Shown here one piece after another: positions 2,864 through 34,685 of a DNA stretch of 35,425 nt (the stretch's first letter is position 1; each line of letters starts with the position of its first letter). Origin of the DNA: Seison nebaliae. Lineage: Eukaryota. The position numbers and the translations under genes were made by a program. The DNA lies in the NCBI GenBank assembly GCA_023231475.1, contig JALJEE010000769.1, positions 1 through 35,425 of the forward strand, read 5' to 3'. The notes beneath the pieces are model-generated. The model did no database searches. It worked only from the letters and a program-made list of their open reading frames with translations, and had not been told where the DNA came from.

Positions 2864-3451
2864 AATCCAAGTCAGTTCCAAGTCAGATTAGGTCGAAAAA
2901 GAACGAACGTAATTCAATATTAGCATCTCTCACAATAATTAATCTAACCAATCCTATTACTATAGATTGAAGTAATAGTTCAAATTCTTAAAATTATTTA
3001 CCAATATCTTTATTTCATCTTCATTTTAACGTTCATTTAATAATCAATTAATTCAAATGCTCATAAACCTAAAAGTCAATTTCAAGGATTTGAGGTAAGG
3101 CGGACACACAAATCACGATTAATGAACGTTTTCCAGTGAGAATTAACCAAATCTTGTAAATTATTTGAAGTGTCTGTAATTTTATTTGAATTCCACTGCA
3201 TTAATGTGAATGAAGATGTTTAAAAAATAATGATAATAAAAAATTTTAAATAATTAAGAAAAAAATCTTCTGTTTATTCCAGGCCGATGATTTTTCAGTA
3301 TTTTCTATTTTCACGTGTGATTCTATTTGAGAAAAACTATGGTAAAATTAAGAGTTTTAAGAGAAGTATGTTGTTGAATTGAAAGCTTCCAGTCTCTAAA
3401 TAGTGAAGTGAAGATAAGACATTGGTAAGTTTTTGAAGTTCGTTTCAGAGG

Positions 3452-6113
3452 ATGATAGAAGAAGTAAAAAAAGTTAGAAAGAATGGAAGAAGGAATGCTA
3501 TCAACCGAAAAGTGTTGGTCGATCGGTTGAATTTAAGAGAGAAATTAGGAGATCTTCAGAATACTGTTCAACAAACTACTTCTTCGAATGAGAGTAAAAC
3601 AGAAACAAGCCCGGAAATAAAATTTGCTCAATCATTGGCATCTAATTGTAAAGAACAGCGTGAACAAGCTCTTTCTCGTACATCTAATTTTTTGAAAACG
3701 CAAAGTTCCGTCATATCTTTGAAAAATGTTCAACATCGTTTTAGAATCGATAACATTCGTTGATTTATTGAAATTATGGAAAGGACTTTACTTAGCCTTA
3801 TGGCAAACGGACAAACCAAAAACACAAGAACATCTGATTGAAAACGTTTCGTCTCTAATGAAATGTTTCGATTCGAATTTATCGTTTTCAATTCTCTTCT
3901 ATCGTGCTGGCATTGCTACAATATCGAGAGAATGGAAAGTTATTGATAAATGGAGAACTGATAAATTCTTATTGGTTTTAATTATGATCTTCTCAATTTT
4001 ATTTTATTTCTATTTTTAGTTAAATCGATATCTCTTGAAAAATTTATTGGATGTTTTTGAAATGTTTGATTGGAATGAACATTGTCTCATTTATTTTCGA
4101 AAAATATTATTGATTGACCTCTTAAATGATTATGTGAAAGAAGATTTAGTTAAAGAGAATTTCAATGTTTCCATCGATAATGATGATGTGAATTCTTCAA
4201 AAAAATTATTCAAGCGACACATTTCCGATTATGAAGATTACGATGAACAATTATTGTTACTTCATCAGAATCATGTGAAAACGGCGTATAGTTCTCTCTT
4301 TCTCTCTTTCCATCAATTCATCGATTGAAGGTATTCTTATTCATTTTTTGGAAATATTCCTTGAGGAATTATCATTAAAGAAGAAAGTCTCTACTAAAAT
4401 TTCATCTGCAATCTCGAAAATATTTGTGGAAGCTATTTCGTTATTAGAAAAGTTTTATTTTTTTTCTTTCACCAAATTGATTATGATTGAACCTTATTAA
4501 TGATTTTTTATAAAAAGCATGAAAATTTGTCATTTGATCGAGAAGAATATTTTTAAATCAATCATCGAACAGTCAGATGTTGGCATCCCAACAGAGGAAG
4601 AAGAAAAAGAAGAATTTAACAATTTAACAACTTTCGACAGAACGAAAATTGAGAAGAAGTATCAGAATGAAGATGAAGAAGAATCGTCTGTTGAAGTTAA
4701 TTTTATTGGTCTTTAAAATTTGAAATGTTTTTCTTGAAAAATAAAGTTCGATTATGAATTTTTAAGTGAAGCATTTTTGGAATTTTGGAAGAAACAAAAT
4801 ATTCCTACGAAGAATAAGAAAATTCTCCATCGCAATTATATTTAGTTCACTTTAATTTTTTCTTTCGTCCTTTCTCATTTAGTAGTTTCAAGGAAATGGA
4901 CAATGGAAGATATCCGTTCGCTATGAATAAAGATGAATATAAACCATCCTTAAATGATGATGTTGCTTGCCTTTATTTTACATCATTTTCTCATATAATT
5001 TAATTTAAGGATGTTTCAATGAAAGAAGATATCTTACCTGAAATTTGTAATTCCGAACAAATTGGAATGAAAGAAAAAAGGTTAATAGAGAATAGAATGG
5101 CAATCGATAATTTAACAGACAATGGAGTGGTCAATGGTAACTTGATAGAAAATGAAGTGTTAATCGAGGAGAATGTGATGAAAAATGACAATGAGAATAA
5201 TGAAGAAGAAAGAGATGATGTTACTTCATCGAACGAATTGAATAAACTAACTCCGAACAACATCAAAGGAGATGGTTTTAATTTAGATAATCCTGTGAAA
5301 TCACCAAATCTTTCACCCGTTCCTAAATCGATGTCGATGAAATTGACATTCGTCACCGAGGATCCTCAAGAAGAACAAATTCTAAACTCTCTACTACAAA
5401 ATGAGGATGATGCAGTTCCGAATATCGACGTTGCGATATCTGAAAGTCCAGAAAAGATTGATTCAGAATCAGAATCAGAATCAGAATCAGATGATGTCGA
5501 TATGCAAGAAAATGATGAAGAGAACGAAGATATAAGTTTTAATGACGGAAGAATAAGGAAAGTTACATTTCAAGGTGGACTCCCACAAATCAGAGGTTTT
5601 AATTAATCATTTCTATTTCGTCTATTGATAAATTCTTAAGAATTACCGAAAAGTTGGAGGAAACCGAAAAAATTAAAAATTCACATTCCTCATTTAATTG
5701 AAGAGAATATGAAATCGATTTTGAAAGAAAAGAGTAAATATCCGACGGATAAAATGTCTCCGATTAATGGAGAGACGACACTGAATGAGGAAGGCTCGAA
5801 AATTCGTATAGAACTTGCCAAACGTGCAATTGATCAAAAGAAAGGAATAAACGCCAATAACTTTTATTTATTCAATGAATTTATAGCAAATTCACTCGAG
5901 AATAAATTAGGTTCGGAGGATTCGGATGAATCATGTGAAATCTCCTCAAAAGTTTTCGAATGGCTCTTGGAGAATTCGATCGACGAAGAAGGAGATGATG
6001 GTAAATCTGTATCTGATGATTCAGACGACGAATATAAGCCAAAAGGAAAGAATAAAAAGAAAATGAAACGAAACAATAAGAATAAGAAGATGAATAAAAA
6101 GAGAAAGTCGTAA
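3452..6113 (+). CDS. RRP1: Ribosomal RNA processing protein 1 (RRP1/Nop52 family), 9 exons
   Basis: Nop52 motifs EIKFAQSLASN, LLKLWKGL..ALWQTDKP, REWKVIDKWRTDKFLLL, HFLEIFLEEL and FDYE. Frame-restoring introns: 3705-3744, 3975-4019, 4291-4330, 4452-4517, 4696-4746, 4845-4885, 4962-5009, 5596-5640. RKVTF (RVxF) motif and a basic C-terminus. Confidence 0.9.
5463..5490 (+). repeat. (TCAGAA)n coding microsatellite (Ser-Glu repeat)
   Basis: About 4.5 tandem hexamers inside an RRP1 exon. Confidence 0.8.
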
Positions 6114-6929
6114 AACTTTTTTTTTATCAGTGGTTGGTCCTCGGAAAATTTTCAATTATTTGTGTATGTTTAAATTGAACTAAATTTTTTTATTTGTTCT
6201 AATTGGTTTTAATGAATGACAAAATTTGATAAATTTCAAAGATGGATATCTTCAGCCGTGTTGTCGCCAAATAAGTAAATGGGGCGTGTTAAATAAATGA
6301 GTAATTAATATTTTTGATAAAATATTTTAAAACTAATTTGTTTCAAGAAAAAATATTCTGACAGCAAAAAATAACAATAAAAATTAGCTGAATTGAACTT
6401 AAAATTTGAATGACAATTTTCAAATATATTCCAATTCCATTAATTTTTTATGTTACAAAGTTATATGAGATATTTATAATATGAAAATGGAGATGGTCCA
6501 TCTCCTACATTTTTGTTATTAGAGAATAATAAATAACATAACAATGAAGACATATGAGGTAGGGACAGAGGAGGAAGTGTATATTTATTTCATTAGGCAA
6601 ACTGGACAAAGAGGGACATTCTCTGGTGAAATGAATGTTGTATAAGTAACTTTTATAAGTTGTATGGATATATTATGTGAATTGAATTGAAATATGAATT
6701 GATGTCTCTATCATTTGAGTTGTAAGGAATAAAATAAAAGGAAGAGATATATCTGCCTTAAACTGATTAATAGAAACATATTTAGTTGATATGATAAATT
6801 GATAAATCAATCTTACTTTTTTTCTTCATTAGATGTATAGTTATGGTCTTCTAAATTAAGACATACTTCTCATCTGATGACTGAGCTATTCCTTAACTAT
6901 CTATTCAGTTTGACGTCATCCATAGAGTA

Positions 6930-9900
6930 ATGGAGACATTACAATCGGAGAATCGGGAAGATGAGACGGTTGGCATTCTCTTCAACGACTCACCATCTGA
7001 CACTGGAAATGGAACGATTATAGGTGATATATTCATTTCTGATGAACAACTACTTGGTTATTCCACCAAAGAGTTGAATCAAGCATTGAAAATTCATAAT
7101 TTCACTGCACAACAAATTGAAATTGTTAAATCGAGACGACGTATGTTGAAGAATCGAGGATATGCACAGAACTCTCGAATGAAAGAACAATTTAATAGGA
7201 AACGATTCGCTGAAAAACGAAAAAGTCTCATCGATGAATTACGATTGAGTATGACTGAATATGAGAAATTAGAATTGCAATTAGAATCTCTCTTTATGAA
7301 TTGCAACGAATCGATAACTTTTGCGAAAAAGTTACAAATCGATATGGCTGACATTTCACCAACTGTCGACGAATTCTATAAGTTGATGTCGAACTTCTCA
7401 TCGGGTAAAGGGAAGTTGAAGGATGAAGCGAAAAAATTCCTTCAGTTTGAAATGAATGTCAATTATCAAGAGAATGGCAATAAAGAATGTTCATCACCAA
7501 TCTCAGGTAGAGCGACATCCCCCGCTCAAAATTTTTCGTCAATTGTTGAAGATGAAGAAGATTTATCGGAATTGATAGTTGAAAATGAGAATATGATACA
7601 AGAGAAGAATTCATTCGAATCGAATAATGTCAATTCGGAATCGAATTTCAGTCGAAATTATTCGAAAATCGATTTCAATGAAAAGATGATGAATCCGAAT
7701 AATTATTTGAAACAAAAATCATCCCATTTATTCCGATCAATATATCATTCAGATATTACTGAAAGTGAACCATGTATGGATGATGAAACGACAACAGGAA
7801 ATGATTATGACGACGACTTTTCCGAATGTGATTGGAATCATTCTCGTTTGGCACAAAGTCGACGGTTAGTACAAATGAAGAATGAGGAATTATTGAGAGA
7901 GCAAGAAGAACAGAAACTGAATGGTAATAATGGTAATAATGATCCAGAATATCAAACATTGACACCATCATCGGCAGCAAAAATGAAGGAAGATTTCAAG
8001 ATATTTCGATCAAACCCTTCAACAATCGAAGAAGTTGAAAATGGGAAAAGTGAAAATTATCTTCAAATCGATTCAATGGATAAGTCAATGTCCAAGAATG
8101 ATGATGTCGATAATTTCAAAAATGATTCTTCTTCCATTCTTCTTGGGAATGACACTAATGGAATGATTGTGGATAATTTGAATGGAAATTTCTCAACTTC
8201 TAATCGAAACGACAATCATGACGAAAATGAGAATTTAAATAAGAATATTGTGGGCACAATATCATCCACTACCACTACTTCAAATTCAACTGATGCATAT
8301 GTAAATAATAATAATAATAATATGAATAATAAAATTTTTCATCATCATAATCATCAATACAATGAGAATTATAAGACAATGATAACACAACGACCATATC
8401 TGTCGACAGCGATTCGTAGTGACGATCGTCGATTAGTTGAAGACCAGATGAAACATCGAATTCTTATGAATAACGAACGAACAGCATTTATTAATGGAAT
8501 CGTGACACAAGATGTAAACGATGATGATGATGATGATGACGATGATGATGATGAGGATGATGATCATGATAGTCGTAGTTTGAATCATAACGACTGTTTA
8601 ACTAATAATCATCTTTATAAATTCGATGGAAACGGTTTAAATAATTCAAATGAAATGGAAACGTCTCCTTCGTTTGATTCGATGACAGATCATTTGATAT
8701 TTAAGAGAACGCATCATTTAATTTCTGAAGAAACAATAAAATCAAACGATTCACCGAAGTCTTTGATTGATACCAAATTAAAATTTGTAAATAGTCAACC
8801 CAGACAAATGTCATTGATTGAAAGTGAAAATAAAGAAGATGATGAATTAATTGATCAGAAATCAGAGACAGATATCTCAAAAGACAAAGACAATTATCTC
8901 TCAGATATCTCTCAAATTAAATCTCAATATGGACATAATATCGTTCTGGAGAACGCGATGAAAGAACCATTTGCTATGAATAGTTTGGAGACGCCGGAAT
9001 CGAAAAGTAATTTTTTCAGGAATTCGACGGCTGTCGTCGTTTCAGCGGCAGCGAAATTACCGTCGAATGTTAAGCGATTAAGAATTCCTTATAGTTTCAA
9101 AGTGCCAAATAATACGAATCTTCCACCAATATATCCTCGATGTTACACTCAATTTCAATCCATCCAAAATAATCATCATGATTATGTCGATATACAGAAT
9201 TTGACACCAAATACACTTCCCAGCACCGACGACAATACGGATTTCTCTGAGAATAAATCACTTCCCATTCCACAGACTAATGAGAGTTCACTAGACAATC
9301 AATCTCAATATCAACATCTCATATCAACCAAAAATGACGTTGAGATGATGTTGACATCATCATCTTCACAATTATCACAACAACATCATCATAGAGACGA
9401 TATGATTTCGAATGGAAAATCAGAAAATTATATATTCTCTTCTAATATCTCTAGTTCTGAAAGAGATTCATCTGGATCGTACAGAATGGGAAATCGAATG
9501 GTCTCCCGGTTATCTGCTAATCATTCGAAATTCAATTCATCCATCTCTTCCAATACACCAACAATGACATTAAAAGATGATTATCGTCGAGATCGCACAC
9601 ATCCGTATCAGATCAATAAGAATCGAAATATTTTGAAAATTAGAAATTTGAAGAGAACATTCGGTTCAATGCAACAACAATCTATTTCACTTCCAACAGG
9701 AAATAGTGAAAAGTCTGAAGTGAATAATGTAGAATTAACAGGTGTGGAAACCGTTCCAACCACAATTACCACAAACAAAATCATAAGAAGTGATGTAAAT
9801 GACATCGAGATAAAGCAGAAACGTCGAAATGAAATTGAATCAGATATCGATATAGATAGTCCAATTAAATCGACCACCGTCCCCACAGTCGTCACAACGA

Positions 9901-10526
9901 AACATAGGAAGAACTTTTTAAATCCTCCCCCATGGGTAGATTGTGCTGATGATGCGATGAATGATGGCGATGATGAAGATGATGAATATGATCATCTTCT
10001 TCAAAAGAAGAAAGCCATTCAATCGACGGAGGAAGATGATGATGAATTGATTTTATATCCCGATCAATTATCTTCTACTACATCTCTTCACAATCTCGAC
10101 AGCACATTACGAATGTCGTCGGATAAACAGTCGACGAAGCATGATAATAGTAATAATAAGAATGACAGTTTTATGGTAGATTTGGAGAAGAAGGTTGAAG
10201 ATGTGAAACATGTGAAAAATCTTTCGTCTATGATCAGTTTATTGGTTGGAGGATTGTCAAGAAGTTCCGATGTGATCAATTCGAATGATGATAATAATGA
10301 AATCAGTAATAATAATAATAATAATAATAATAATAGTATTATTAATCATCCGCATCATCATCAACTGACGAAGAAGAATAGTGACAATTTAATATCATCA
10401 GCGTCATCTACAGGAAATAGTGTAAGTCGATGTCGTTTGTTATATGAAATTAATCTGAAATTAATTCTCAATAATTTGAAAAGAAGACAAAGTCGAATGT
10501 TGGTTGATAAGAAAGACCGAACTTAA
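6930..10526 (+). CDS. maf: Maf-family bZIP transcription factor with a very long low-complexity C-terminus
   Basis: Extended homology region plus basic region: ISDEQLLGYSTKELNQAL...IEIVKSRRRMLKNRGYAQNSR, then a leucine zipper. The terminal exon structure is uncertain. Confidence 0.85.
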   Translation: METLQSENREDETVGILFNDSPSDTGNGTIIGDIFISDEQLLGYSTKELNQALKIHNFTAQQIEIVKSRRRMLKNRGYAQNSRMKEQFNRKRFAEKRKSLIDELRLSMTEYEKLELQLESLFMNCNESITFAKKLQIDMADISPTVDEFYKLMSNFSSGKGKLKDEAKKFLQFEMNVNYQENGNKECSSPISGRATSPAQNFSSIVEDEEDLSELIVENENMIQEKNSFESNNVNSESNFSRNYSKIDFNEKMMNPNNYLKQKSSHLFRSIYHSDITESEPCMDDETTTGNDYDDDFSECDWNHSRLAQSRRLVQMKNEELLREQEEQKLNGNNGNNDPEYQTLTPSSAAKMKEDFKIFRSNPSTIEEVENGKSENYLQIDSMDKSMSKNDDVDNFKNDSSSILLGNDTNGMIVDNLNGNFSTSNRNDNHDENENLNKNIVGTISSTTTTSNSTDAYVNNNNNNMNNKIFHHHNHQYNENYKTMITQRPYLSTAIRSDDRRLVEDQMKHRILMNNERTAFINGIVTQDVNDDDDDDDDDDDEDDDHDSRSLNHNDCLTNNHLYKFDGNGLNNSNEMETSPSFDSMTDHLIFKRTHHLISEETIKSNDSPKSLIDTKLKFVNSQPRQMSLIESENKEDDELIDQKSETDISKDKDNYLSDISQIKSQYGHNIVLENAMKEPFAMNSLETPESKSNFFRNSTAVVVSAAAKLPSNVKRLRIPYSFKVPNNTNLPPIYPRCYTQFQSIQNNHHDYVDIQNLTPNTLPSTDDNTDFSENKSLPIPQTNESSLDNQSQYQHLISTKNDVEMMLTSSSSQLSQQHHHRDDMISNGKSENYIFSSNISSSERDSSGSYRMGNRMVSRLSANHSKFNSSISSNTPTMTLKDDYRRDRTHPYQINKNRNILKIRNLKRTFGSMQQQSISLPTGNSEKSEVNNVELTGVETVPTTITTNKIIRSDVNDIEIKQKRRNEIESDIDIDSPIKSTTVPTVVTTKHRKNFLNPPPWVDCADDAMNDGDDEDDEYDHLLQKKKAIQSTEEDDDELILYPDQLSSTTSLHNLDSTLRMSSDKQSTKHDNSNNKNDSFMVDLEKKVEDVKHVKNLSSMISLLVGGLSRSSDVINSNDDNNEISNNNNNNNNNSIINHPHHHQLTKKNSDNLISSASSTGNSVSRCRLLYEINLKLILNNLKRRQSRMLVDKKDRT
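8520..8570 (+). repeat. (GAT)n coding microsatellite (poly-Asp)
   Basis: Imperfect GAT run inside the Maf ORF. AAT runs (poly-Asn) also occur near 8303-8330 and 10308-10334. Confidence 0.8.
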
Positions 10527-10914
10527 ATTCAAATAAATTATTTCTTCTCCTAGTTTTTATCACATAAAGGAACTATCGATCCCACTGCCATTAGAATCCA
10601 TTCATTCAAAACCTTTTATTTATATTCATTCTATTCGTCACTTATTGTTTGGGAAAAGAAAAATTCTTCGATAGTTCTATTAGAATTCTCATTCTGAATC
10701 ATTATCATTTTTTTTAATTTTATGAAATAAACTTTTGGTAAGTAAAATTTTCAGTCTTTCAGAAAGGTTATTTCAGAATTATGTTAATTTTCAGTTATCA
10801 ATGAAAATGTTTTATATCAGATGGTATTCCTCTCATAATTGACTCTAATAAAAACTTTAAATAATTGTCTATTACGATATCATATTATTTTTGTATTAGT
10901 ATAATCAAATTAAA

Positions 10915-22390: not shown

Positions 22391-24458
22391 ATGAGAGATA
22401 AAATAATTCTTTTCTTTTTTACTTTTATAACATTATCTTATTCAGTCAAGTATGATATAGTAAAAATCGATCGAGATATCCAAAATGCCGATATTCAATT
22501 CGAACTTAAATTTACAGGAATATCAGATCGATATCTCCTATTTGGACTCTATAACGATGACATATCATTGATTATGGGAGACATCTTTCTGTTCGACACT
22601 ACGAAAAAAGGAAGAAAAAGTTGAAAATTTTAAAAATCTTTTCATTTTATAATTAACCGTTTATTTAAGATTTTAATGATTATTATTTAGATAATGATTA
22701 CAAAATGCATAAAGAAAAGAATATAGATTGGAAATTAATTTCATACATTACTGAACCGGATAGTAAATCGTTCATTTTGAAGAGATCAATGATTACTTGC
22801 GACAAATATGATTTGGATATAAAAGTTTCGATTCTATTTTGAATTGGTTATTGTTTAATTATTGAGGGAAAATCAGTTTGGCTCTAATGAATTTATCATC
22901 GGAAGTGGCAATGATATTAAATGGAATGATATTGAAAAATATTCGGTGAAAAGAATTCGTAAGTTTATTGGAAATACTCAAATTCCATTTTCAATCTCTG
23001 ATAATTATTTTAAAATGGAAGTGCAAATTAATATGGTTCGCTTATTAGACGTGAACAAAAGTTAAAACTTTCTTCTTTTCTGTCATATTTAGATTGAAGA
23101 TTCAACGGAAAATTATTGTAAACTCTTCAACATAGATCCTCAAATGATTACTTCAAACGGTTCTGGATTTCTATATGGAGTTACTAACTGATCTTTTACT
23201 GATGTAAACTGGAATATTTTTAGATACAAATTAATATAATAAACGAAAAATACCAAATGATAAATCTTGGAAATGAGCACAATGTTAAAAGTTTAACTAT
23301 TCACATATGTAACAAAAGTTTATCAGAAACAAATGTAAGATATTTCCAAGCAAACGGATTTCCGACTGATGGCGATTGTTCGTTAGTCGATCATTATTAT
23401 GATTATTGTAAGTATTTTACCTTGAATCATTGGGAAGGGAATTTTGAAGTTAACACATTGAAATACAGTTAATTTACTGAATATCTAGGAGTTCCTTATA
23501 GAAAAGGATAATTCCATAATTATTTCTGGTGAAACTTATTTATTTGTGGATGTCAAATTAAGAGACAAGTCGAAAAACCAACCAGGTTTTTCTTTATTCG
23601 TTCGTTGTTGTTCAATCATTTATATGAAGATATCGAAATAATTATGAAGTTTTATAAAGAACAAACTACAAATTTCATTTCACTGATGAATGTCAATTCT
23701 AATGAATGTTCTGTTGATGATTGCTTACCAACAATTATACCAAACGAATGCTTCGATCTTAGTATTTTTAGTACTAAATTAGTGGTCGATTTAGACGTTC
23801 TATTTTTCCTCAATAATTTTTAGAATTTAATAAATATCATGTTTAGGATGTGGACAACGTGAAAAACTTGAATTTCTTTGGAATGAAATCCATATCGAAC
23901 AGTAATTAATTTTTTTCTATAATGATGATTTTCTATAATTAATTTATAAATATTTTAGTGCCGAAAAATAGGTATTTCTTCAAATTTAATAAGGTGTCAA
24001 CCAACTGGAAGAAATATAAACTATTCTCTTTTGTGCAACATTCATATGATGAAACCAATTTATTTATTCGATTAAATAACACAATCAATTCATTTAGTCT
24101 ACAATCCATCATCTTCGATTATTCATCAATTTCTCATATTCCTCAAACCATCAATACTATTCTTTATATTCAACATCAAAATATTTTCAGTGAATCCTTC
24201 ATTTCTGCCACAACAAGTAATTATGATACAATATGTCACAAAGTTAATTTTCATATAATATTTAAATTATTTCTACTGCCTTCTAATTCGTAGCATAAGT
24301 CCAATCAAATTGAATATTACAAAAATTTATTTAATTCAAAAGACGTGGAAGCCAACTGTCAATTAGACATTAGAAGTCATGGTAATTGTAAACATAAAAA
24401 TTCTATTCTTTTATTTTCAATCGTTTTCACCATATTGTCCTTAATAATAAATTTATGA
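22391..24458 (+). CDS. DOMON + degenerate copper type II monooxygenase (DBH/MOXD1-like) protein, about 10 exons
   Basis: Signal peptide. DOMON-like LLFGL...GDIFLF...KRSMITCDKYDLDI, then TENYCKLFNI (cf. TTYWC.MF.I). C-terminal hydrophobic tail. Short frame-restoring introns, e.g. 22620-22669, 22825-22876, 23036-23092, 23180-23223. Confidence 0.65.
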
Positions 24459-24647
24459 AAAAATGTAGTATAGTGGATGTGAATAAACGACAAGAATATG
24501 CAAGAATAATTTATTCAATCATCAAATAATACTTGAATTGTGTTATTTGTTTCTTTGTTTTCCTTAAAATTTATAAAGAAATTGTTGAATTCAAGAATTT
24601 ATTGTAAAGTTTGGAAAGAAAGGATATATTAAATCAGGTCCCCTAAA

Positions 24648-25292: not shown

Positions 25293-25454
25293 TTTTTAAA
25301 TGAATTCATCGAATATTCAAGGAATTCATCATGATGGAAATATTACATTTAAATATTCGTACACAAATACTTACAAATGATCATTCAAATTACTTCTAAA
25401 AATTATTATTAATGTGTATGTAATGTAATATTAATCTCTCAAAATTCTTTTAAT

Positions 25455-25968
25455 ATGAATACTTCGACTGAGTGGGAGTACCAAAATTCTAAGGTTATTG
25501 ATGAGCGTGTGAAACCAGGGTCAGATGTTCTCTGCATGTACCGTTCATCTCAGAACGAACCAGGACAGGAAACCGATTCTCAAGATCTCCAACGCAACAC
25601 ACCAAGTACTGGAAATAAAAGAGAGAAACCTGAGAATTCCTCTCTGATCTATTGGATCACATTTGATACGATGGACTTTTCATCATATTTCGAAGAAATA
25701 AAGAAAATTGTATGAACTATCTATAATATAGTAAATATCTTATTTTTAGAAGTCTGGGTGGCTCTTATGTCCTAGACTCAACAGCAGTATGTGTCAGAAA
25801 TTTGGAAAAATATATTCGACTATTCACATCAAACCTATGTGGGAACCAATACATCCTTTAGGTTTGAGATTAGGTAAAAGTCTAATTTGCAAAGAACATT
25901 ACCAGGATTGCCTTGAACCATTAATGTATCGGAAGGCAATAATAACGACTTCGTCAGTACATTTGTAA
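25455..25968 (+). CDS. Hypothetical protein, 2 exons
   Basis: The 86-codon ORF joins a second open frame (KSGWLLCPRL...SVHL*) through a 40-nt GTATGA..TAG intron at 25710-25749. Confidence 0.5.
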
Positions 25969-26187
25969 AAAACAATTTGGTGTAAGGCGAGTTAAAATAT
26001 TCCAACATCAAAAAGAATCGGTTAAAATAAACTTTTTCTCATTTGTCGAATAATTCATGTCTAATTTTCTCATAAATATTGTTCTAAAACATAAAAGTCA
26101 GCTTTATCGAATATTACTCATTGGAAAAAAGTTTTAAAGGACAAGCTTCATCTGAAAATAATGGAGTATCGTACCCATCAGTAAACG

Positions 26188-26544
26188 ATGGTTTGTAATA
26201 AATGTGAGAAGAAATTGAACCGTTTAGCTACACCTGATCCATGGAAAGGTTCAAAGAAAGGAGGTACTCTATCAACTGGTGGTGGATCAGGTGGAGCTAT
26301 TACATCATCGAAAGTTATAAACGGAAATAAGTTATTATCGAGTAAAAATACACGATTTCATCCGTATGCCAAACCCTCGAAAGACAAACCGACATCTCAA
26401 TTCCGAAAATGTCGAATTTGTGCCGATTCTATCCATTTGACCGGTGCATATTACTGTCAGAAATGTTCTTATAAGAAAGGTATATGTGCCATGTGTGGAG
26501 CGAAAGTGTCGGAAATAAAAAATTATGTGGGTCGAACAGTGTGA
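26188..26544 (+). CDS. CRIPT: Cysteine-rich PDZ-binding protein
   Basis: MVCNKCEKKL..TPDPWK, NKLLS..RFHPY, CRIC...YCQKCSYKKGICAMCG, and a C-terminal T-V PDZ ligand. Confidence 0.95.
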   Translation: MVCNKCEKKLNRLATPDPWKGSKKGGTLSTGGGSGGAITSSKVINGNKLLSSKNTRFHPYAKPSKDKPTSQFRKCRICADSIHLTGAYYCQKCSYKKGICAMCGAKVSEIKNYVGRTV

Positions 26545-26651
26545 TTTCGTAATAAATTTTTTGTTCAATTTTGAAATAAAATAAATTTCCCAACATTTTC
26601 GATTTGGTTCGATCCAAAGCTAAAACATTTTTACTTTTCAATTAGTATTTG

Positions 26652-27367
26652 ATGGAGTATGTGGATGAAGAATATCATTTAGAGATCACTCCATCTACTC
26701 TTTATTTCGATAAGCCGGATGATGTTTTTGCGGGAAAATTCTTCATGAGAAATCTATGTCATGAATATGTCATTTGTCATATTAATTCAAATAATGAGAA
26801 TTATTTCATTTCTCCTCATCAATTATGCTTAGCAGTTTGTTCTTATATTATTCTTTAGTTGTCTAGATTCAAAAAATAGCCGATGAACAATTGTCAGATA
26901 ATAGTAGAAACTGAAGTTCTCATGCCACATAAGGATAAAATTGAAATTTTCTATAAGTTGACTAATGAATTCCAATCTCATAGTCAAATTAATTTAATTA
27001 TAATGAGTTCGATAATTTTGTCAAAACTTTTATTTATTAAAATCTATTGAGAATAGATGAGAATTTCCGATTATTCTCCAAATCACTAGATGTAGAAAGG
27101 AAATTCGATTATTTACTTACTGATGCATATCCAATAAATCGAAAAAATGATAAGTTTTCGAAAGAAATAGTTTATAGATCTGATTTGAACGTAAATCAAA
27201 ATAATTACAATGAGGAAGAATATCCAAGGACTCTGAATGAGATAAGCGATGTAGATAATAGTATGATTAACAAGCGGGAATTAAAATCGAATTTTGATCA
27301 TTTGAGAATGTGGGAAATGAATAAGAATCAGAATCGGAAAAAACCGGAAAATTTAGGCATAAGTTAG
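26652..27367 (+). CDS. MSP (major sperm protein/VAP)-domain-like protein, 3 exons
   Basis: LEITPSTLYF...FFMRN...V.CHINSNN..YFISP..CLAP...IIVE....KDKIEI fits the MSP Ig-like fold pattern. Introns 26835-26879 and 27007-27056. Confidence 0.55.
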
Positions 27368-27529
27368 TGGCCATTTTAGAAAAAGTTTATTCGTATAATC
27401 GATTTTGTTTAGCTAATAAAATTATGTGTATGGCGGATAATTTTGAGAAACATATACAGCAAAAATATGGATATGGAATCGGTAGAATATGTTAATCAAT
27501 TTTTTGATTCAATTTTTATAACCCTTCAA

Positions 27530-28228
27530 ATGAAACATTCTTATTCAGTTACTGTTCGAACAGTTTTGGCATTTCTTGGAGTACTTTTAGTCTCCATCAT
27601 TTTGGTCTTATGGGTGTTATTTACAATTAATGGTGAAGAAGATACTGGACATCCGTTGGGACCGGCTCGTGTTATTTTCCCTAATAGTTATATGGCCGGT
27701 TATGTACAACATGATTCAGCCCACGGTCATTATAAACAAAAAGAACCAAATACTCCACAAGATGTGTTGGTACATTTTGGTAAAAATGGAAATTCCGTTG
27801 CCGAGGTGCGTAAACCATATTGTAAACCAATTTGTAAACCATTTGGAAAAGGAAGAAATCATAGACCGTTTTGTACAAGTGGTTGTAGGAAACCTCATCC
27901 GACACCTTACGAGAATCCTGGTCCATGGTGTAAACCATATCCATGTCGAAAGAAGAGAGAAGATGCTCCTTATCTTGATGAAATATGTCGGATGAATTCA
28001 TTTAGATGTAACACAATTCAAAAAGTTCCTGATAATTATTATCATAAGACACCGAATAATGATTATCAAAATCGATATTTTCCCGGAAAACAATATCCAA
28101 GTAATCCAAGTCCTGAAGAATATGAGTCTCCCGTTTTTGATATAGAGAAAGGTATCGAATATCCTTCTAAATATAAAAAAGATCATATGTTCGATAGATA
28201 TGCTAGATATGAAACTCTCCAAATTTAA
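27530..28228 (+). CDS. Membrane-anchored or secreted Cys/Pro/Tyr-rich orphan protein
   Basis: Hydrophobic segment VLAFLGVLLVSIILVLWVLF, repeats KPYC-KPIC-KPFG, and an RKKR site. The start could be the upstream ATG within the ORF. Confidence 0.7.
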   Translation: MKHSYSVTVRTVLAFLGVLLVSIILVLWVLFTINGEEDTGHPLGPARVIFPNSYMAGYVQHDSAHGHYKQKEPNTPQDVLVHFGKNGNSVAEVRKPYCKPICKPFGKGRNHRPFCTSGCRKPHPTPYENPGPWCKPYPCRKKREDAPYLDEICRMNSFRCNTIQKVPDNYYHKTPNNDYQNRYFPGKQYPSNPSPEEYESPVFDIEKGIEYPSKYKKDHMFDRYARYETLQI

Positions 28229-28562
28229 TCATGAAAATTATCCGAATTTTGATTATCATTAAATCAAGAAAAGATTTAAAATCTCAATTTAGGAGTAGTA
28301 ATTGGACGTTAATATAACTTTTACTAACAACTGTAATATAACTCCTAATACCTAATACACAAATACTTCATAAGGACATCATCAAACTATTAATCACCTA
28401 TAGTCTATAAATTATAATCGAAACATTGATATGGAACCAAAATAATATAATATATTTGTACATTTTTCATAACCAATTAAATATCTTAATTAATTTTTTC
28501 TCTTTCATTTTCATTTTGTTTTACTGAAATATTAGCAATCTATAATTTTTGTGTAGCTTTAA

Positions 28563-29418
28563 ATGCGCTTCCGTAATAATCAAATAAAATATATTTCGTT
28601 CGAAACGAAACATCTGTACTTCGTTTATATAGACGAGAAGAAACTGTATAAAGCAATTTTGCCAATTGATAATCATTCAATTTTATCGAACTTCATAGGA
28701 AAGATCAGTTGCCCAAACAATAATGTTAGAATATATCCAAGTCCATTCAATCTTGAAGTTCCGTTCAATTTCAAATAAAAACGATTATATTCCAATTGCA
28801 AGTTTTCATCTTCAAGGCAAATCTCTTTCGAGACACCAGAGAAACCTTCTGATAAATTAAGAGTTATTATCAGATACGTTTGGAGGAAAAATGTAAGTAA
28901 TTTGGAAGAATGTTTTAAAGATTTGGAAAGTTAATTCGTTCTATTCGAAAACCAGTTTTTATCTAAACAATTCTTTATTTTTAGAAATCGGATTATATGA
29001 TGAGAGAATCCTTGATTTTCCTACCATTGTTTCAACTAATATTCAATTAGACACAACTTACGATTCCCAACGAAAATTATTTGGACAGATAGAATCGATA
29101 AGAAGTCAACCTGGTAACGTGAATACGAATGCTATTTGCGATCTATCGACGATCAAAAAATGGGAAACAGCAAATAATATCAATTGCAGTTCAGTTTTAT
29201 TTTGTGAATTAATTACTTTATTTGCAGGTAATCGGAAACATGGAAACAAAACTAAACAACCGGATCCAATAATTCCACGATTATTCCTCATATTTTGTGG
29301 GATAATACTGTTAATTCTAATAATTTATTTTACAAAAGAAATAGTTGATAAAGTATCAAAACCGTTATGTTTAACGGGGAGTCTCTATGGAACAAAAGAT
29401 TATTATGTCGATTCATGA
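28563..29418 (+). CDS. Hypothetical single-pass membrane protein (5' end uncertain)
   Basis: Frames are joined by introns 28758-28802 and 28930-28984. C-terminal TM segment LFLIFCGIILLILIIYF. Confidence 0.5.
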
Positions 29419-29517
29419 TCTTCTGAAATAATACATTCTATACAACAAATATTAAAGATAATTATTAAATTTAGTTTTTTTCCGATTATTTACATGTGAA
29501 AGAACGAAATGTTAAAG

Positions 29518-30141
29518 TTAAATATCTAAAAAATGCCATAACGCTTGTAATGTATACTGTCGGTTTTTCAATGAAGCACTTACCCTTAATCTTTGACTAG
29601 ATGGTGTAATACTTCTTTTGAATGCTCGTCGACAACCACCTACCGGTTGGAATAAACTTCGTGGTTCTAATCGTCTTTGTCTTTGATGAGGATAAATTGA
29701 ATTTAATGAACGAAATTTTTGATCTCCTGGTACAATTTCACAAGAAGCTCGTTTCAATCGAATCAATAATTTCTTCTTATAATGATGTACGCAACACAAT
29801 CCTGAACATCCATGTACGGAACCGCCAGCATTAGCCGGTGGTAATAATCCTAATTTCCTTTTAACAAAACAAGCATAAGCGTCGTATAAATGTTTGCGAC
29901 TGTATAATGATTGATATTTCTTCTTAAATTTTATCAATGGTGAATTGAAAATTTCGTCACATGAACAAACGCCATCACAAAGGCATGTGTGCTGAAATAT
30001 TTGACGTGATCTTCCCGTTAGTTCTTTCAGAACTCCCCACAATTCTAGAGAAGCATAAGTTTTTCTACAATCGACTAAATTGTCAAGTGTTATGGTGGAG
30101 AGAGATATTATTTCTATAAGAATTAGTAAGCGCATTTTCAT
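29518..30141 (-). CDS. Secreted Cys-rich protein, paralog A
   Basis: Signal peptide. Shares a CLC..CSC.EI..SPLIKFK..YQ.LYSRKHL..AYACFVK.KLG..PP.N core with 30945-31445. Confidence 0.8.
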   Translation of the reverse strand: MKMRLLILIEIISLSTITLDNLVDCRKTYASLELWGVLKELTGRSRQIFQHTCLCDGVCSCDEIFNSPLIKFKKKYQSLYSRKHLYDAYACFVKRKLGLLPPANAGGSVHGCSGLCCVHHYKKKLLIRLKRASCEIVPGDQKFRSLNSIYPHQRQRRLEPRSLFQPVGGCRRAFKRSITPSSQRLRVSASLKNRQYTLQALWHFLDI

Positions 30142-30449
30142 TTGAACGTTATGTTTTTGAATAATTTAATTTTCAGTTTTATTTTACAGTTTTAAAAGTT
30201 TAATTTATATAAGGTTTAATTTTTAGTGTATATTAATTATTATTATCGATTAATTACACCTACCAATTAATCAATGCAATTAATTACACTTGTCTCAATC
30301 GTAAGATTCAATTCAACCAATGAACTTACCAATCGGTTTCGTTTATTACCCAGATTGTCTACAGTGAACTCTCTGCATCCTTTAATTTCAAAACGCAACA
30401 TTCTGATTAAAAAGAATATTGAAGAAAATGATATCATGAACAATGAATG

Positions 30450-30759
30450 TCATTGAGATAAAGATTTCTTGGTTATTTCAAAACCATTTTGTAAATATTT
30501 AGGTTTTTGTGGAAATTTGTCTATTTCAAATGGGGTAAACGGAAGGTATCCCCGAAGTTTCTCTTTACTAAGCACCGTTCTCTCTTTATTGTCAGATTTG
30601 GTATTAAAAAAACTCGGGGATAGCTTCCTCTTTTTCACATTTTCTTACTGTTAAGAGAGAGAAACGTCGGGCATAATTTCCTACATTGTTCAAATGGTAG
30701 TATAAACTTTTTTCGACGTTTCGAATCAGAGCTTTCGTCACATCTTTAGATAAGTCCAT
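30450..30759 (-). CDS. Possible small 2-exon orphan gene
   Basis: MDLSKDVTKALIRN...AIP joins KEKLRGYLPF...SQ* through a 46-nt GTT..TAG intron at 30568-30613. No homology recognised. Confidence 0.3.
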
Positions 30760-30944
30760 CTTAATTATTCCGCGTTAATTTTGAAAAATAAATTTCGGAA
30801 ATTAAAATGATAAAAATAAAACCTAATTAATAAAACTTTCTAAAATAAAATTATAAAACCTAACATATATTTTATTTCCAGTTAAATTAACGCATTAAAA
30901 GAAATGGTGAAAGATGATAAGTGGAACAGCGTCCACAAAACCAT

Positions 30945-31445
30945 TTAATCGACATAAAAATATTTTTCATAATACAGACTGTAAATCGTTCGACAATCTT
31001 GTCCAAGACCCGGTAAGTAAATTTCTCTCTTTATCCTTTTATGTTGATAAAGCTGATAGAATTCATCATTTACATTATTTTCGAATGTGCAACGTGCACC
31101 TCTGTAATGCTTTTTACAACATAAACGCGATTTACCTACTAGATTTGTTGGTGGCATCTTACCCAATTTGGCTTTGACGAAGCATGCATAGGCATTGAAC
31201 AAATGTTTCCGACTATAAAGTGCTTGATATATTCGCTTAAATTTGATAAGCGGAGAACAGTAGATCTCTTCACATGAACATATCTCGCCGCAAAGACATA
31301 CACGTTGGAACATTTTACGAGATTTGGGTGTCAGTTTTCGTAATTCTTTCCAAAGATCTTTTGACGGTGATGAATGTTTTTTAGAAAATAATTGTTGAGG
31401 TAGTAAGATAAGAAAGGAGATTACCATTGATAATTCTGCGCGCAT
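30945..31445 (-). CDS. Secreted Cys-rich protein, paralog B
   Basis: Signal peptide and the same conserved core as 29518-30141. Confidence 0.8.
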   Translation of the reverse strand: MRAELSMVISFLILLPQQLFSKKHSSPSKDLWKELRKLTPKSRKMFQRVCLCGEICSCEEIYCSPLIKFKRIYQALYSRKHLFNAYACFVKAKLGKMPPTNLVGKSRLCCKKHYRGARCTFENNVNDEFYQLYQHKRIKREIYLPGLGQDCRTIYSLYYEKYFYVD

Positions 31446-31625
31446 TTTACTCAGATCTCCGTGAGTTCCTTATAAAAAATTTGAATCATATTTTTGTCGA
31501 ATCAAATTAATTAATCAGAAGAAGAATTTCAATCGAAACAGATTCCACTTTTCTTTCCTTTTTATATTAGAACCATATTTGGTATATATTGGATACTCAA
31601 TTTTAGTTAGATCAATTCATCTATT

Positions 31626-33446
31626 ATGGGAAATCGATTCTCTAGTTCGGACAATGATCGAAATATTGAAGATTATCATTCAGCCATGTCGTCCCGCAAT
31701 CAATTCTTTCACAATAATTTAGGGAAATATGCGGAAACATTCGGAATTAGTAGTGAAAGATTACTAGACATTTTCGAAACGGAAATCGGATTTTATGATG
31801 AATCTTGGCAAGGCATTAAACGCCATCAATGGACATTAGCGAACTGTTTGTCATTGTTTTCCAAACTCTTCCCCAATTCTTCACAAGTCACACGTCGTAT
31901 GTATTGCGAAAGAATTATCGGTTTATTTGACACACCATTCATTTATGATATTGCACCATATCAGGTAGAATTATTAGAAAAATTTCAAACTAAATCACAA
32001 TGTGCTGCTTTCCAAGATTATTTGAACAATAATTTAGATCGACGAATGATCAATCTGAATGAGAAAGAAAAAAGAATTGAACATATTCTCAAAATCAAAC
32101 GGATTCTAAGCGATAATTATGATATGGATAATATTGGGAAATTGAATAATTCAAATAAATTATCGGACGATGTCATGTTAGAAATCTATCCAACGAAAGG
32201 ACTTTATTCACTTAGACCCAATCTGTTAATATTAGCGAAGAATTGTAAGAGCCATCAAGAGGGAGATTTTGATGAAAATCAGGAGAGATATCGAATGAAA
32301 TTAGAATATGATTTGTTCAATAATCATTTCTTAAATTTCATAACTTTTCGAGAATTATTAATTGGACTAATTCTTATGAGTAATCATCACAATATCAATA
32401 TTAATGATATGGAGAACATTCAAAGTAATTCGATTTATTTAAGAAACTTTCAGAATAAGTTGGAAGCTGCATTCGATCTATGGGACACAGCAGATAAGAG
32501 ATATCTAACACCGAATGAATTTAACGCATTAATTTATGCAATTTATAAAATATCAGGACATGCTGATGGATATAGTTTTCATTATTCTTCTCTTTCGACT
32601 ATCTAATCTTTTTATTCAAAAATAATAGATATCAAATTTGCATCTCAATGTTATACAAAATGTGCGAAAGTAAGTGGAGAATTATGGAAGTTGAAACAAT
32701 TAAAACAGTTCCAGAAGAAAGATATGTCCACCAATTGTAGCGAACTGCCACCACCTTGTGAAAATCGTACTGAAACGGCGAGTGAACTCTTCGAAAATAG
32801 ATTTGCGACACCCAACGATGAAACTGATCAATATTACGAAGAAATTTGTGATAAGAAGGATTGTGTAACTAAAGATGAATTTATTCGACTAATTTTGAAT
32901 AATGTTTTCTTTCGAAGTATCTTAGCTGGTTTCGGTTCGATTCCCGATATAACAACTTATGGAGAAGGACATCTTATCATCGGAATGCCGCAAGATCCAT
33001 CCTATCCTACTTTGACTACACCGAAAAAGAAGAGTAAAATTCCTCATGAAGGAAGTGATAAAGTGTTTAAAGGACAACATCCAGTCTCTCGAATCAATAG
33101 TAGTAATACTTATCCAAACTTATATCCAGTGGAAGATTTGGAATTGGAAATTAGTGGAAAATTATCGAGTATTATGAAGACAGCGATGTGTAGTCAATTG
33201 GAATGGACTTCTCCAATGCATCATCAATTATCCGACGACTTTTATAAAAGTCCATTAAAGAAATTGATTAAATCCGCTTCTTATCGAGATAAATATAAAA
33301 CGGAGAATGCCTATTGGCATGATTTGTTGATTGATACAAATAAAAACCAATTGAATCGTGAATGTCGAGATAAAGTGAAAATAGGAGATATTTATTCCAA
33401 TATCGAAGTTAAAACGATCGATGTGAATAATAAAAAAGAAATTTAG
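31626..33446 (+). CDS. Expanded neuronal calcium sensor (recoverin/frequenin)-family EF-hand protein, 2 exons
   Basis: MGNRFS myristoylation motif. NCS-like segments LFP...YCERIIGLFD, ITFRELLIGL, KLEAAFDLWD..YLTPNEF..LIYAIYKISG and VTKDEFIRL. Intron 32575-32628. Confidence 0.75.
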
Positions 33447-33598
33447 AATTAACTTCCACTCGAACAATAAATAAATTTTTTAGATCGAATAAATTTTTTA
33501 CAAATATCAAATATAGTACAATAATTGTTAAAATATCGTTATCGATGATATATAGAGTTGGTTGAGAGAAAGAAATATGTGAAGAAAAATAAGAGAAT

Positions 33599-34685
33599 TT
33601 AAAAAGCAATTTTTCTTCTTCGACCTGTATATTTCGTATCGGCTCGAACTTCTTTTCCTTGACGTCTTCGTCTTTCCTTTTTACTGAGAACTCGTTGACG
33701 TCGTGTTATTGTAGGACCTTTCTTATTCTTCTTTACATTCCCTCGTTCACGTCGAAGATTTAATTGGTTTTTCGAATCATCCAAATCTTCAAAACAAAAT
33801 TGTATAAATAAATTTTAAAAAAATGAACTTGGAGGTAAATCGTTGATTGTGCCACCAGTAAATAAACACAAATATATTTTTTTAGCTCTTGTTGAATTAG
33901 GATAATCGATAACTAGACCTCCTGTAAAACCACATAACATCGCTTGTTTCATAATCAAATCAGCTTGCGTTTGACTTGACGGATAGAACTGGAATACAGC
34001 TTTTCCTCCTTGCACTAATGAAGCGAAAATAGTTTGGAAAAACTTTCTAAGACGCTTTATCGGATTGTGATCGTTTCTATCACTATTACACAACCATTGA
34101 ATGGCTGATATGCTTATAATTGCGTCAAATGAGGCTAATATCCATAAATGTTAGAAAGATAAGAGAAACAAACGTACCTGGTCTGAATGGAACACCATCA
34201 CCAATATCATTTAAAACGGCATCACCATTATTTAATAAGTTCTTATTATTTTCTTCTTCTTCATTATCATCATCTTCTTCTTCCGTATCCATATCATCAT
34301 TATCATCATCATCATCATCTTCTTCTTCTTCTTCTTCTGATATCATTTCAAGATCATTAATTGGTTTGTTTCGTTTATTATGGAAAACATTCAACATCGA
34401 TTCACTGATATCAACACCCACCTATTTAATTACTTCATGTTTCGAGAAAGATTTTACTTAAAATTAAACCCAGTAATGACCTGCTTTTGCTACTACTTCC
34501 CCACTCAAGCCAGACCCACAACCAACATCTAAAATCAATGAGCATTCTTCCAAATTCAACAACTCTAATGCTCTTTCCGATAATTTCTTCTGGATAGTTC
34601 GTATTCGACTGTTTTTCGTATATTTGGCAGCTTCCTCGTCGTTGTAAAAGTATTGGGGAGGACCTTGTGATTCAGGACGAGACAT
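33599..34685 (-). CDS. BUD23: 18S rRNA m7G methyltransferase BUD23/WBSCR22, 4 exons
   Basis: MSRPE..PP..FYNDEEA.KYT.NSR, LDVGCGSGLSG, ISISAIQWLCN, GFTGGLVIDYPNSTRAKK and TKYTGRRR. Introns 34422-34469, 34135-34177, 33787-33828. Confidence 0.97.

What the first reader, a model, noticed from the sequence alone, without database searches (positions are those of the whole stretch)
3705..34469. Shifted 5' splice-site code: introns start GTT, not GTR
Seen: 32 of 35 hand-placed coding introns begin GTT. Counts are RRP1 8/8 (GTTCCG, GTTTTA, GTTCTC, GTTTTA, GTTAAT, GTTCAC, GTTGCT, GTTTTA), MORN4 3/3, TAF12 3/3, Kazal 3/3, MOXD-like 8/9, MSP 2/2, NCS 1/1, BUD23 2/3 and the 28.5-kb gene 2/2. The three exceptions are GTACGT, GTAATT and GTATGA; none is GTAAG or GTGAG. 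In RRP1, MORN4, TAF12 and BUD23 many positions are forced by protein conservation. Established: U2-type donors are overwhelmingly GTRAGT, with +3 A/G pairing to U1, and +3 T is rare. AT-richness alone would favour A as much as T. Inference: this lineage has a rewired spliceosome that selects +3 U, with +4 to +6 nearly free in short introns.
Basis: partly seen in the sequence, partly recalled or inferred. Interest (0 to 1): 0.9.

Follow-up and report, generated by a model that had tools for sequence, protein, structure and literature searches.

The report
Rotifer introns that start with GTT
In this DNA from the marine rotifer Seison nebaliae, 32 of 35 predicted introns begin with GTT instead of the GTA or GTG that animals normally use, which likely means that its splicing machinery has changed how it recognises where an intron starts.

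Summary
The window is a Seison nebaliae contig (NCBI protein labels). I rebuilt ten genes: 35 introns, 32 GTT and 3 GTA. Three NCBI models give 18 of 20 of the same donors, plus one GTG fusion intron that is probably an artefact. A placement blind to +3 estimates 92-94% T. Background is 41-57% T (p = 7e-6). BUD23 genes of bdelloid rotifers have 6 of 35 GTT, all six with +5 G; Seison has +5 G in 6 of 32. The working signal is about AR|GTT; the two longest introns read GTTAGT. No RNA junctions and no Seison snRNAs could be seen, so the mechanism is inferred: most likely a U1 5' end changed from ACUUAC to ACUAAC, as in Entamoeba (0.45). Rivals: +3 U read by U6 or a protein with a normal U1, shifted register (poorly supported), intron turnover. 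A published BUSCO table lists METTL16 as missing only in Seison. No report for any animal was found. This scan noted GTT donors before on other DNA (Bonamia, foraminifers), not in an animal.

The parts
3705..3744 (+). RRP1 intron 1, aaa|GTTCCG, 40 nt, phase 1
   Evidence: NCBI model; junction aligns without gap to a PDB Rrp1 chain
3975..4019 (+). RRP1 intron 2, ttg|GTTTTA, 45 nt, phase 0
   Evidence: gap-free junction against human RRP1; no GTR alternative within 90 nt
4291..4330 (+). RRP1 intron 3, ata|GTTCTC, 40 nt
4452..4517 (+). RRP1 intron 4, aaa|GTTTTA, 66 nt
4696..4746 (+). RRP1 intron 5, gaa|GTTAAT, 51 nt
4845..4885 (+). RRP1 intron 6, tta|GTTCAC, 41 nt
4962..5009 (+). RRP1 intron 7, gat|GTTGCT, 48 nt
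   Evidence: no GTR alternative within 150 nt
5596..5640 (+). RRP1 intron 8, gag|GTTTTA, 45 nt
10964..11015 (+). Kazal gene intron 1, caa|GTTTAG, 52 nt (needs the 5-nt micro-exon 11016-11020; uncertain)
   Evidence: inference
11021..11074 (+). Kazal gene intron 2, gaa|GTTTGA, 54 nt (uncertain, as above)
   Evidence: inference
11235..11283 (+). Kazal gene intron 3, acg|GTTAAC, 49 nt
   Evidence: Kazal domains on both sides
12050..12092 (+). MORN4 intron 1, cat|GTTTCT, 43 nt (near alternative also GTT)
   Evidence: same junction in database protein P0127
12268..12438 (+). MORN4 intron 2, tcg|GTTAAT, 171 nt
   Evidence: flanks match MORN4 chain residues 5-61 and 62-96
12549..13486 (+). MORN4 intron 3, atg|GTTAGT, 938 nt, holds a nested antisense ORF
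13970..14020 (-). TAF12 intron 3, aaa|GTTTCA, 51 nt
   Evidence: flanks match Pfam TFIID_20kDa positions 3-45 and 47-64, weak E-values
14723..14795 (-). TAF12 intron 2, aac|GTTTTT, 73 nt (GTGAAC 6 nt upstream scores as well; GTGAGT 45 nt upstream is in frame)
15488..15706 (-). TAF12 intron 1, gaa|GTTAGT, 219 nt (first exon inferred)
22620..22669 (+). 22.4-kb gene (SNEBB_002329) intron 1, aaa|GTTGAA
22825..22876 (+). 22.4-kb gene intron 2, aaa|GTTTCG
23036..23092 (+). 22.4-kb gene intron 3, atg|GTTCGC (GTGAAC 15 nt downstream scores better by composition)
23180..23223 (+). 22.4-kb gene intron 4, gga|GTTACT
23449..23488 (+). 22.4-kb gene intron 5, gaa|GTTAAC
23586..23629 (+). 22.4-kb gene intron 6, cag|GTTTTT
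23797..23846 (+). 22.4-kb gene intron 7, gac|GTTCTA
23902..23958 (+). 22.4-kb gene intron 8, aca|GTAATT (exception)
24243..24293 (+). 22.4-kb gene intron 9, aaa|GTTAAT
25710..25749 (+). 25.5-kb gene intron, att|GTATGA (exception; gene unverified)
26835..26879 (+).
27007..27056 (+). 26.7-kb gene intron 2, tga|GTTCGA (GTCAAA alternative)
28758..28802 (+). 28.5-kb gene intron 1, gaa|GTTCCG
28930..28984 (+). 28.5-kb gene intron 2, aaa|GTTAAT
32575..32628 (+). EF-hand (NCS-like) gene intron, ata|GTTTTC
33787..33828 (-). BUD23 intron 3, caa|GTTCAT
34135..34177 (-). BUD23 intron 2, cag|GTACGT (exception; the most canonical donor in the window)
34422..34469 (-). BUD23 intron 1, tgg|GTTTAA
   Evidence: a low-depth, 80%-alike contig aligns up to 34466, four letters into the intron

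Best explanation
The predicted introns of this Seison nebaliae contig start with GTT nine times in ten, most likely because the U1 RNA that marks intron starts has changed one letter so that it would pair with U at the third position. Shown: short (median 50 nt) GT-AG introns with the signal AR|GTT, little information at +4 to +6, and GTTAGT in the two longest introns. Inferred: U1 5' end ACUUAC > ACUAAC (position 6, pseudo-U to A), giving an unbroken helix over G+1 U+2 U+3 in the normal register with optimum AG|GUUAGU; the A-rich exon end adds pairing to U1 or to U5 loop 1; the U6 ACAGA check at +4/+5 is relaxed, perhaps with loss of METTL16, and U+3 can wobble with the U6 G that faces it; short introns are defined across the intron and so need little more.
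For: 32/35, 18/20 in NCBI models, 92-94% by +3-blind EM. Bdelloid control 6/35, p = 2.5e-10; their GTT donors all keep +5 G, Seison's do in 6/32, so T is the unpenalised base in Seison, while 2 of the 3 GTA exceptions have +5 G. GTTAGT, the canonical GTAAGT with only +3 changed, is in 2 of 3 introns over 100 nt and 0 of 32 short ones (p = 0.005, post hoc): strong donors stay in the normal register and keep T. Among 33 single changes to the U1 5' end, U6A ranks true donors best over 114 neighbouring GT sites (AUC 0.64 against 0.60; partly circular). Nine GTRAG sites lie unused in exons of five spliced genes, and GTRAGT is not depleted in their coding DNA (7 against 3.5 expected). Animals whose donor is reduced to three letters keep GTa (myxozoans, Dicyema; PMC13644364, passages), so reduction alone does not give T. 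The published lineage with fixed +3 U that I found, Entamoeba, has a matching U1 (preprint 10.1101/2022.06.08.495308, passages).
Against: No Seison U1 was seen (no genome held; no Rfam hit in the window). U1 rarely co-evolves: it is unchanged in Saccharomycotina, Giardia, Trichomonas, Thecamonas and Mamiellales with altered donors. Beyond GTT, pairing to a register-0 U1 is not significantly above background (p = 0.10), and -1 G, expected from U1 C9, is not enriched (8 against 6.2) while -1 A is (20 against 11.7). METTL16 loss is linked to +4 U, not +3; +4 T is not enriched here (13 against 15), SNRNP27K is scored present, and 'missing' in BUSCO may be divergence (76 Seison-only losses). No RNA junction confirms any donor.
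Confidence: 0.45

Rival explanations
1. U1 is normal but matters little (weak pairing, divergent U1C/LUC7 or U1-light assembly on short introns); +3 U is then chosen later, by a G-U wobble with the U6 ACAGA box or by a changed protein pocket, and the A-rich exon end by U5 loop 1.
For: No significant U1-type pairing outside GTT. -2 A and -1 purine are enriched (p = 0.005, 0.0001), as for U5-class donors that gain use when METTL16 is lost (PMC11732430, passages). METTL16, SNRNP40 and LSm2 are scored missing in Seison alone among 25 syndermatans for METTL16 and LSm2. U at +3 is noted to extend U6 pairing. U1 is usually unchanged when donors shift.
Against: +5 G, the main U6 pair, is low (8/35 against 20/35 in bdelloids), so a lone +3 wobble would have little helix to sit in. 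Other animals with weak donors keep GTa. No Seison protein or snRNA was examined.
Confidence: 0.28
2. Intron turnover: most Seison introns are new insertions from a source that starts with GTT (introner-like element), and a normal but tolerant spliceosome accepts them.
For: The three BUD23 introns (codon 76/0, 111/1, 213/1) match none of ten bdelloid positions or five fungal positions, four of which bdelloids and the fungus share.
Against: No sequence likeness among the 32 short introns: best local score 29 against 27-41 in shuffles. Decayed elements would not keep +3 alone at 91% without selection. From recall, not from a call: RRP1 introns 1-2 and MORN4 introns 2-3 lie at the human intron positions, and they are GTT.
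Confidence: 0.1
3. A normal U1 binds one base downstream (the +1 shifted register), so that U1 A7 pairs with U+3 and U10 with the -1 purine.
For: It predicts both +3 U and -1 A over G, as seen. The register exists for atypical human sites (PMC4856993, passages).
Against: Its other predictions fail: GTTNNGT in 2 of 35, +6 G 4 against 2.6, +5 A 11 against 10.6, -2 is A not C; no stable duplex and AUC 0.50; the long introns read GTTAGT, not GTTAAGT.
Confidence: 0.09
4. No special recognition: selection on +3 is lost and T-rich, TpA-poor composition plus biased placement gives GTT.
For: Background after GT already favours T (41-57%) over A (17-24%); Val codons GTT 116 against GTA 53; placements are predictions; the homology-anchored subset alone (7/8) does not beat background (p = 0.07).
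Against: 32/35, 18/20 and the blind 29/35 all exceed 57%; EM beats the background model by 10-12 log units under every setting; unused frame-compatible donors are only 40 of 103 GTT.
Confidence: 0.06

Closest known systems
Entamoeba GUUUGU(U) donors with co-evolved U1 ACAAAC (bioRxiv 10.1101/2022.06.08.495308; passages read)
   Same: +3 U is the rule instead of A/G; U2-type GT-AG introns; host-bound lineage.
   Different: Entamoeba donors are rigid (88-90% GUUUGU) in an intron-poor protist; Seison has GTTTGT in 1 of 35, +4 to +6 nearly free, an exon-side AR signal, intron-rich genes, and is an animal. U1 is known in Entamoeba, unseen in Seison.
+4 A-to-U donor switch with METTL16/SNRNP27K loss in Saccharomycotina (PMC10581693; passages) and the U5/U6 donor classes (PMC11732430; passages)
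   Same: Lineage-wide change of one donor position; METTL16 scored missing; loss of +4 A preference (10/35 against 20/35 in bdelloids); weight on the exon side.
   Different: The switch there is at +4, with +3 A kept and U1/U6 unchanged; here it is at +3, +4 U is not enriched, and SNRNP27K is scored present.
Reduced 'GTa' donors of myxozoans and Dicyema (PMC13644364; passages)
   Same: Donor information shrunk to about three intron letters in small host-bound animals with short introns.
   Different: They keep A at +3 and have 22-27 nt introns; Seison has T and a 50 nt median.
+1 shifted-register donors (PMC4856993; passages)
   Same: GUU start and A at -1.
   Different: Needs the slid AAGU at +4 to +7, which is absent here.
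Bdelloid rotifer donors (BUD23 loci L004, L005, L012, L013)
   Same: Short T-rich GT-AG introns of 44-69 nt; a GTT minority exists.
   Different: 27/35 GTA, 6/35 GTT, all six with +5 G; -1 G 21/35 against 9/35; different intron positions.

Membership tests
U2-type spliceosomal introns | GT...AG ends whose removal restores the reading frame | tested here: met
   35 of 35; three BUD23 introns recovered by homology alone
U2-type spliceosomal introns | Removal seen in RNA | not testable with these tools
   no run on record as RNA holds the stretch; laid runs are DNA contigs
U2-type spliceosomal introns | Canonical donor GTRAG | tested here: not met
   0 of 35 GTRAG; 3 of 35 GTR
U12-type introns | Donor RTATCCTT (recalled motif) and minor-spliceosome proteins | tested here: not met
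   no such donor among 35; ZMAT5 scored missing in Seison and acanthocephalans (its identity as the U11/U12 20K protein is recalled)
Entamoeba-type transformed donor | +3 U majority | tested here: met
   32/35
Entamoeba-type transformed donor | Fixed +4 U +5 G +6 U | tested here: not met
   GTTTGT 1 of 35; +4 T 13 against 15 expected
Entamoeba-type transformed donor | Compensatory change in the U1 5' end | not testable with these tools
   no genome held; no snRNA in the window
Shifted-register donors | Consensus slid by one: +4 R, +5 A, +6 G, +7 U | tested here: not met
METTL16-loss +4 U switch | +4 U preference | tested here: not met
   13 of 32 against 15.0 expected
METTL16-loss +4 U switch | METTL16 absent | tested here: inconclusive
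   BUSCO 'Missing' in a published table, not searched by me; SNRNP27K 'Complete'
Introner-derived introns | Families of introns alike in sequence | tested here: not met
   32 short introns of one window, no pair above shuffles; genome-wide not tested
Introner-derived introns | Novel intron positions | tested here: inconclusive
   3 of 3 BUD23 positions unshared; other genes had no genomic homologue

The most novel reading that the evidence does not exclude
Seison nebaliae is the first animal whose major spliceosome has swapped its donor code genome-wide: a U1 with a changed 5' end (ACUAAC, perhaps also C9U) reads AR|GUU, ancient introns were converted in place from GTA to GTT, canonical GTAAGT sites are ignored in exons, and U6 m6A (METTL16) was lost along the way.
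Probability: 0.35. Interest if true: 0.9.

Novelty: new variant of a known kind. Interest (0 to 1): 0.78.

Why it matters
The purine at +3 is among the most stable features of animal splice donors; it survives even where the signal has shrunk to GTa. A lineage-wide flip to T in an intron-rich animal would be a natural experiment on a standing question: how a splice signal shared by tens of thousands of introns and the snRNA that reads it can change together, and whether U1, U6 or proteins set the +3 preference. With bdelloids (GTA, small GTT minority) and the sister acanthocephalans at hand, the order of events can be tested from public genomes. It also matters in practice: gene finders and BUSCO with standard donor models would mis-call Seison genes (two of four database models seen here are faulty), which may inflate the reported gene loss in this lineage (inference).

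Tried and rejected
Whole genome for snRNA and U1C/LUC7/Prp8/METTL16 search: none held. RNA: no RNA holder listed; contigs of X1-X5 show no intron-skipping joint and behave as DNA, which says nothing on splicing. Rfam: 0 hits in the window at gathering score; the multi-copy repeat at 30.5 kb was checked as a possible snRNA and is not one. Reading donors of the low-depth divergent contigs: the tables were cut (629 rows not shown), so only alignment ends could be used. Genomic RRP1 homologues in viral contigs: none. The MORN4 representative search returned mostly long MORN-repeat proteins. PDB search with a TAF12 exon: 0 hits. Atlas checks of the 'MOXD' and 'MSP' labels gave no answer, so these names stay unverified. 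One search used one off-frame training ORF; it was redone with the same outcome, and one search is the one cited for numbers. Branch-point words (CTAA, CTGA, TTAA, CTCA, TAAT, TGAT) are not enriched. Depletion of AR|GTT in exons: not seen (26 against 29.1). A -1 G/+5 G see-saw: not seen (p = 0.40). The 147-nt GTT..AG segment inside BUD23 was left out of the count as probably coding; the GTG fusion intron of the RRP1 model was left out as probably false (with it, 18/21, p = 0.005). The BUD23 tree is the quick version; Seison is a long branch in it and does not group with rotifers, so it was used only to place the control loci.
Full report
Source. Three exon searches each returned a 99-100% identical NCBI protein labelled Seison nebaliae whose longest contig has the window's length, 35,425 (BUD23 SNEBB_002335; RRP1 SNEBB_002322; SNEBB_002329). 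Seison is a seisonid rotifer living on crustaceans, sister group to acanthocephalans, with a compact genome of about 46 Mb and 32% GC (PMC8351084, passages). No whole genome was held, no run on record as RNA holds the stretch, and the laid contigs are DNA. All intron calls below are therefore predictions.

Observation. I rebuilt ten spliced genes from the sequence. They give 35 GT-AG introns, median 50 nt, and ten open frames; +3 is T in 32 and A in 3. All 17 introns of 3n length contain an in-frame stop. Three checks are less dependent on it. (i) Exact mapping of the three NCBI proteins gives the same 20 introns, 18 GTT, plus one GTG intron that fuses two genes; how these models were made I could not see. 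(ii) A protein-to-genome aligner with no donor weights found the three BUD23 introns with each of four homologues, plus a probably coding 147-nt insert that I left out. Eight junctions are anchored by homology (BUD23 1-3, RRP1 1-2, MORN4 2-3, TAF12 3): 7 are GTT. (iii) For each intron I listed every frame-compatible, stop-free GT..AG pair nearby and scored it by coding and intron composition with the +3 base left out. Within 60, 90 and 150 nt, 16, 12 and 6 of 35 introns have no GTA/GTG option at all; the best-scoring donor is GTT in 29 of 35; unused compatible donors are GTT in only 40 of 103; EM over all options gives 92-94% T and beats a canonical donor model by 62-79, a bdelloid-like model by 41-46 and the intron background by 10-12 log units (the canonical frequencies in that model are recalled). 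In addition, low-depth contigs about 80% alike to the window stop or resume aligning within six letters of predicted splice sites at 34466, 23903, 23087, 28981 and 13482; this is suggestive only, as most rows were cut.

Chance. Against the strictest figure (57%), 32/35 gives p = 7e-6, 18/20 p = 0.0014, 29/35 p = 0.0009. The eight homology-anchored junctions alone do not beat background (p = 0.07) but differ from bdelloids (p = 0.0004).

Control in relatives. A scan with the bdelloid BUD23 gave 16 loci. Four distinct intron-rich ones used as control (L004, L005, L012, L013) group with Didymodactylos at SH-aLRT 98 in a quick tree; near-duplicates of L005 and three short partial loci were not counted. 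Their 35 donors are GTA 27, GTT 6, GTG 1, GTC 1 (p = 2.5e-10 against Seison); they cover ten homologous positions, so they are not fully independent. All six bdelloid GTT donors keep +5 G, the usual compensation; only 6 of 32 Seison GTT donors do (p = 0.0003). Seison also has less +4 A (10 against 20), +5 G (8 against 20) and -1 G (9 against 21).

Anatomy of the signal. Among the 32 GTT donors, -2 A (20 against 12.3 expected, p = 0.005), -1 A (20 against 11.7, p = 0.002) and -1 purine (28 against 17.9, p = 0.0001) are enriched; -1 G is not; +4 to +8 carry 0.03-0.25 bits with a weak +5 G excess (p = 0.04) (many positions were tested, uncorrected). The three introns over 100 nt read GTTAGT, GTTAGT and GTTAAT; no short intron reads GTTAGT (post hoc; one of the long ones rests on an inferred first exon). 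Nine GTRAG sites are exonic in these models, five of them 37-102 nt upstream of the donor that the model uses, and GTRAGT is not depleted in spliced coding DNA.

Mechanism. By established structure U1 position 6 faces +3 and the U6 ACAGA box pairs with +2 to +6 (position detail from my knowledge). The simplest change that makes U the preferred +3 base while strong donors stay xxxAGT in the normal register is U1 ACUUAC > ACUAAC; this is the best of 33 single changes in a ranking test, by a small and partly circular margin, and it has a precedent in Entamoeba, where GUUUGU is matched by ACAAAC. I give it 0.45. Against it, U1 stays unchanged in most lineages with altered donors and pairing outside GTT is not significant (p = 0.10). 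The second reading, a normal but weak U1 with +3 read by U6 wobble or a protein and the exon end read by U5 loop 1, fits the exon-side bias and the BUSCO table of PMC12256650 (supplement rows read), where METTL16 is missing in Seison and complete, duplicated or fragmented in the other 24 species; but METTL16 acts on +4, SNRNP27K is present, and 76 BUSCOs are missing in Seison alone, so this may be coincidence or divergence (0.28). The shifted register, a lead from earlier scan notes, predicts -1 A and +3 U but fails at -2, +5, +6 and +7 and forms no stable duplex (0.09). Intron turnover is real in BUD23 (no shared position), but the introns are not alike, and by my recall, not a call, two RRP1 and two MORN4 GTT introns sit at human positions (0.10). 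Composition or mis-placement: 0.06.

Novelty. Searches of the paper library for Seison or rotifers with splice-site terms, for GTT/atypical donors and for reduced parasitic animals listed no report of GTT-majority donors in Seison or any animal; the Seison genome paper mentions introns only for gene length and the 2025 paper's main text not at all. Subscription papers and figure logos are not searched, and supplements of the Entamoeba preprint were closed, so a logo may exist unseen. A 2026 survey finds agGTaagt in most animals and GTa in myxozoans and Dicyema. Fritillaria departs further (non-GT/AG introns) with an unchanged U1 5' end (PMC13326754, passages). This scan's notes hold GTT donors in Bonamia and shifted GTT-NN-GT donors in foraminifers and other protists, unchecked by me, and nothing for this genome. 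Papers also opened without bearing on the verdict: PMC10125929, PMC6543705, 10.1101/2023.12.10.571018 (passages).

Verdict. New variant of a known kind (Entamoeba-like +3 U, first seen here in an animal and without the rigid +4 to +6). Interest 0.78.

Noticed in passing
window 30533-30690: Dispersed repeat of about 155 nt: summed contig depth 500-640 against about 28 for single-copy DNA, up to 17 contigs; its 5' part folds into a long hairpin (z -2.3); no Rfam family. Probably a MITE or fold-back element.
   Followed up: partly
window 12543-13229 (-): A 229-codon ORF without Pfam match lies antisense inside MORN4 intron 3.
   Followed up: partly
window 34242-34388 (-): BUD23 carries a Seison-only 49-residue acidic insert bounded by GTT..AG, in frame and stop-free; coding in the NCBI model, but it could be a retained or optional intron.
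   Followed up: partly
window 2564-3548 and 11992-12283: Database models are faulty here: SNEBB_002322 fuses an LLC1-like ORF to RRP1 through a GTG intron, and P0127 reads through MORN4 intron 2 to a stop.
   Followed up: yes
window 11016-11020: The Kazal gene needs a 5-nt micro-exon between two 52-54 nt GTT introns, or else loses part of its signal peptide.
   Followed up: no
window 12447 and 12549: In one MORN4 exon ATG|GTGAGT (8 nt after the acceptor, exonic by homology) and the used ATG|GTTAGT differ only at +3; the short distance may by itself explain the choice.
   Followed up: partly
window 33599-34685 against L004, L005, L012, L013, L010: Seison BUD23 lacks all ten bdelloid intron positions and has three of its own, a sign of heavy intron turnover.
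   Followed up: partly
window 29521-30165 (-) and 30948-31469 (-): Two neighbouring paralogous cysteine-rich ORFs with signal-like starts and no convincing Pfam match.
   Followed up: no
acceptors of the 35 introns: -3 is T 21, A 11, C 3: AAG acceptors are common and CAG rare; no branch-point word stands out.
   Followed up: partly
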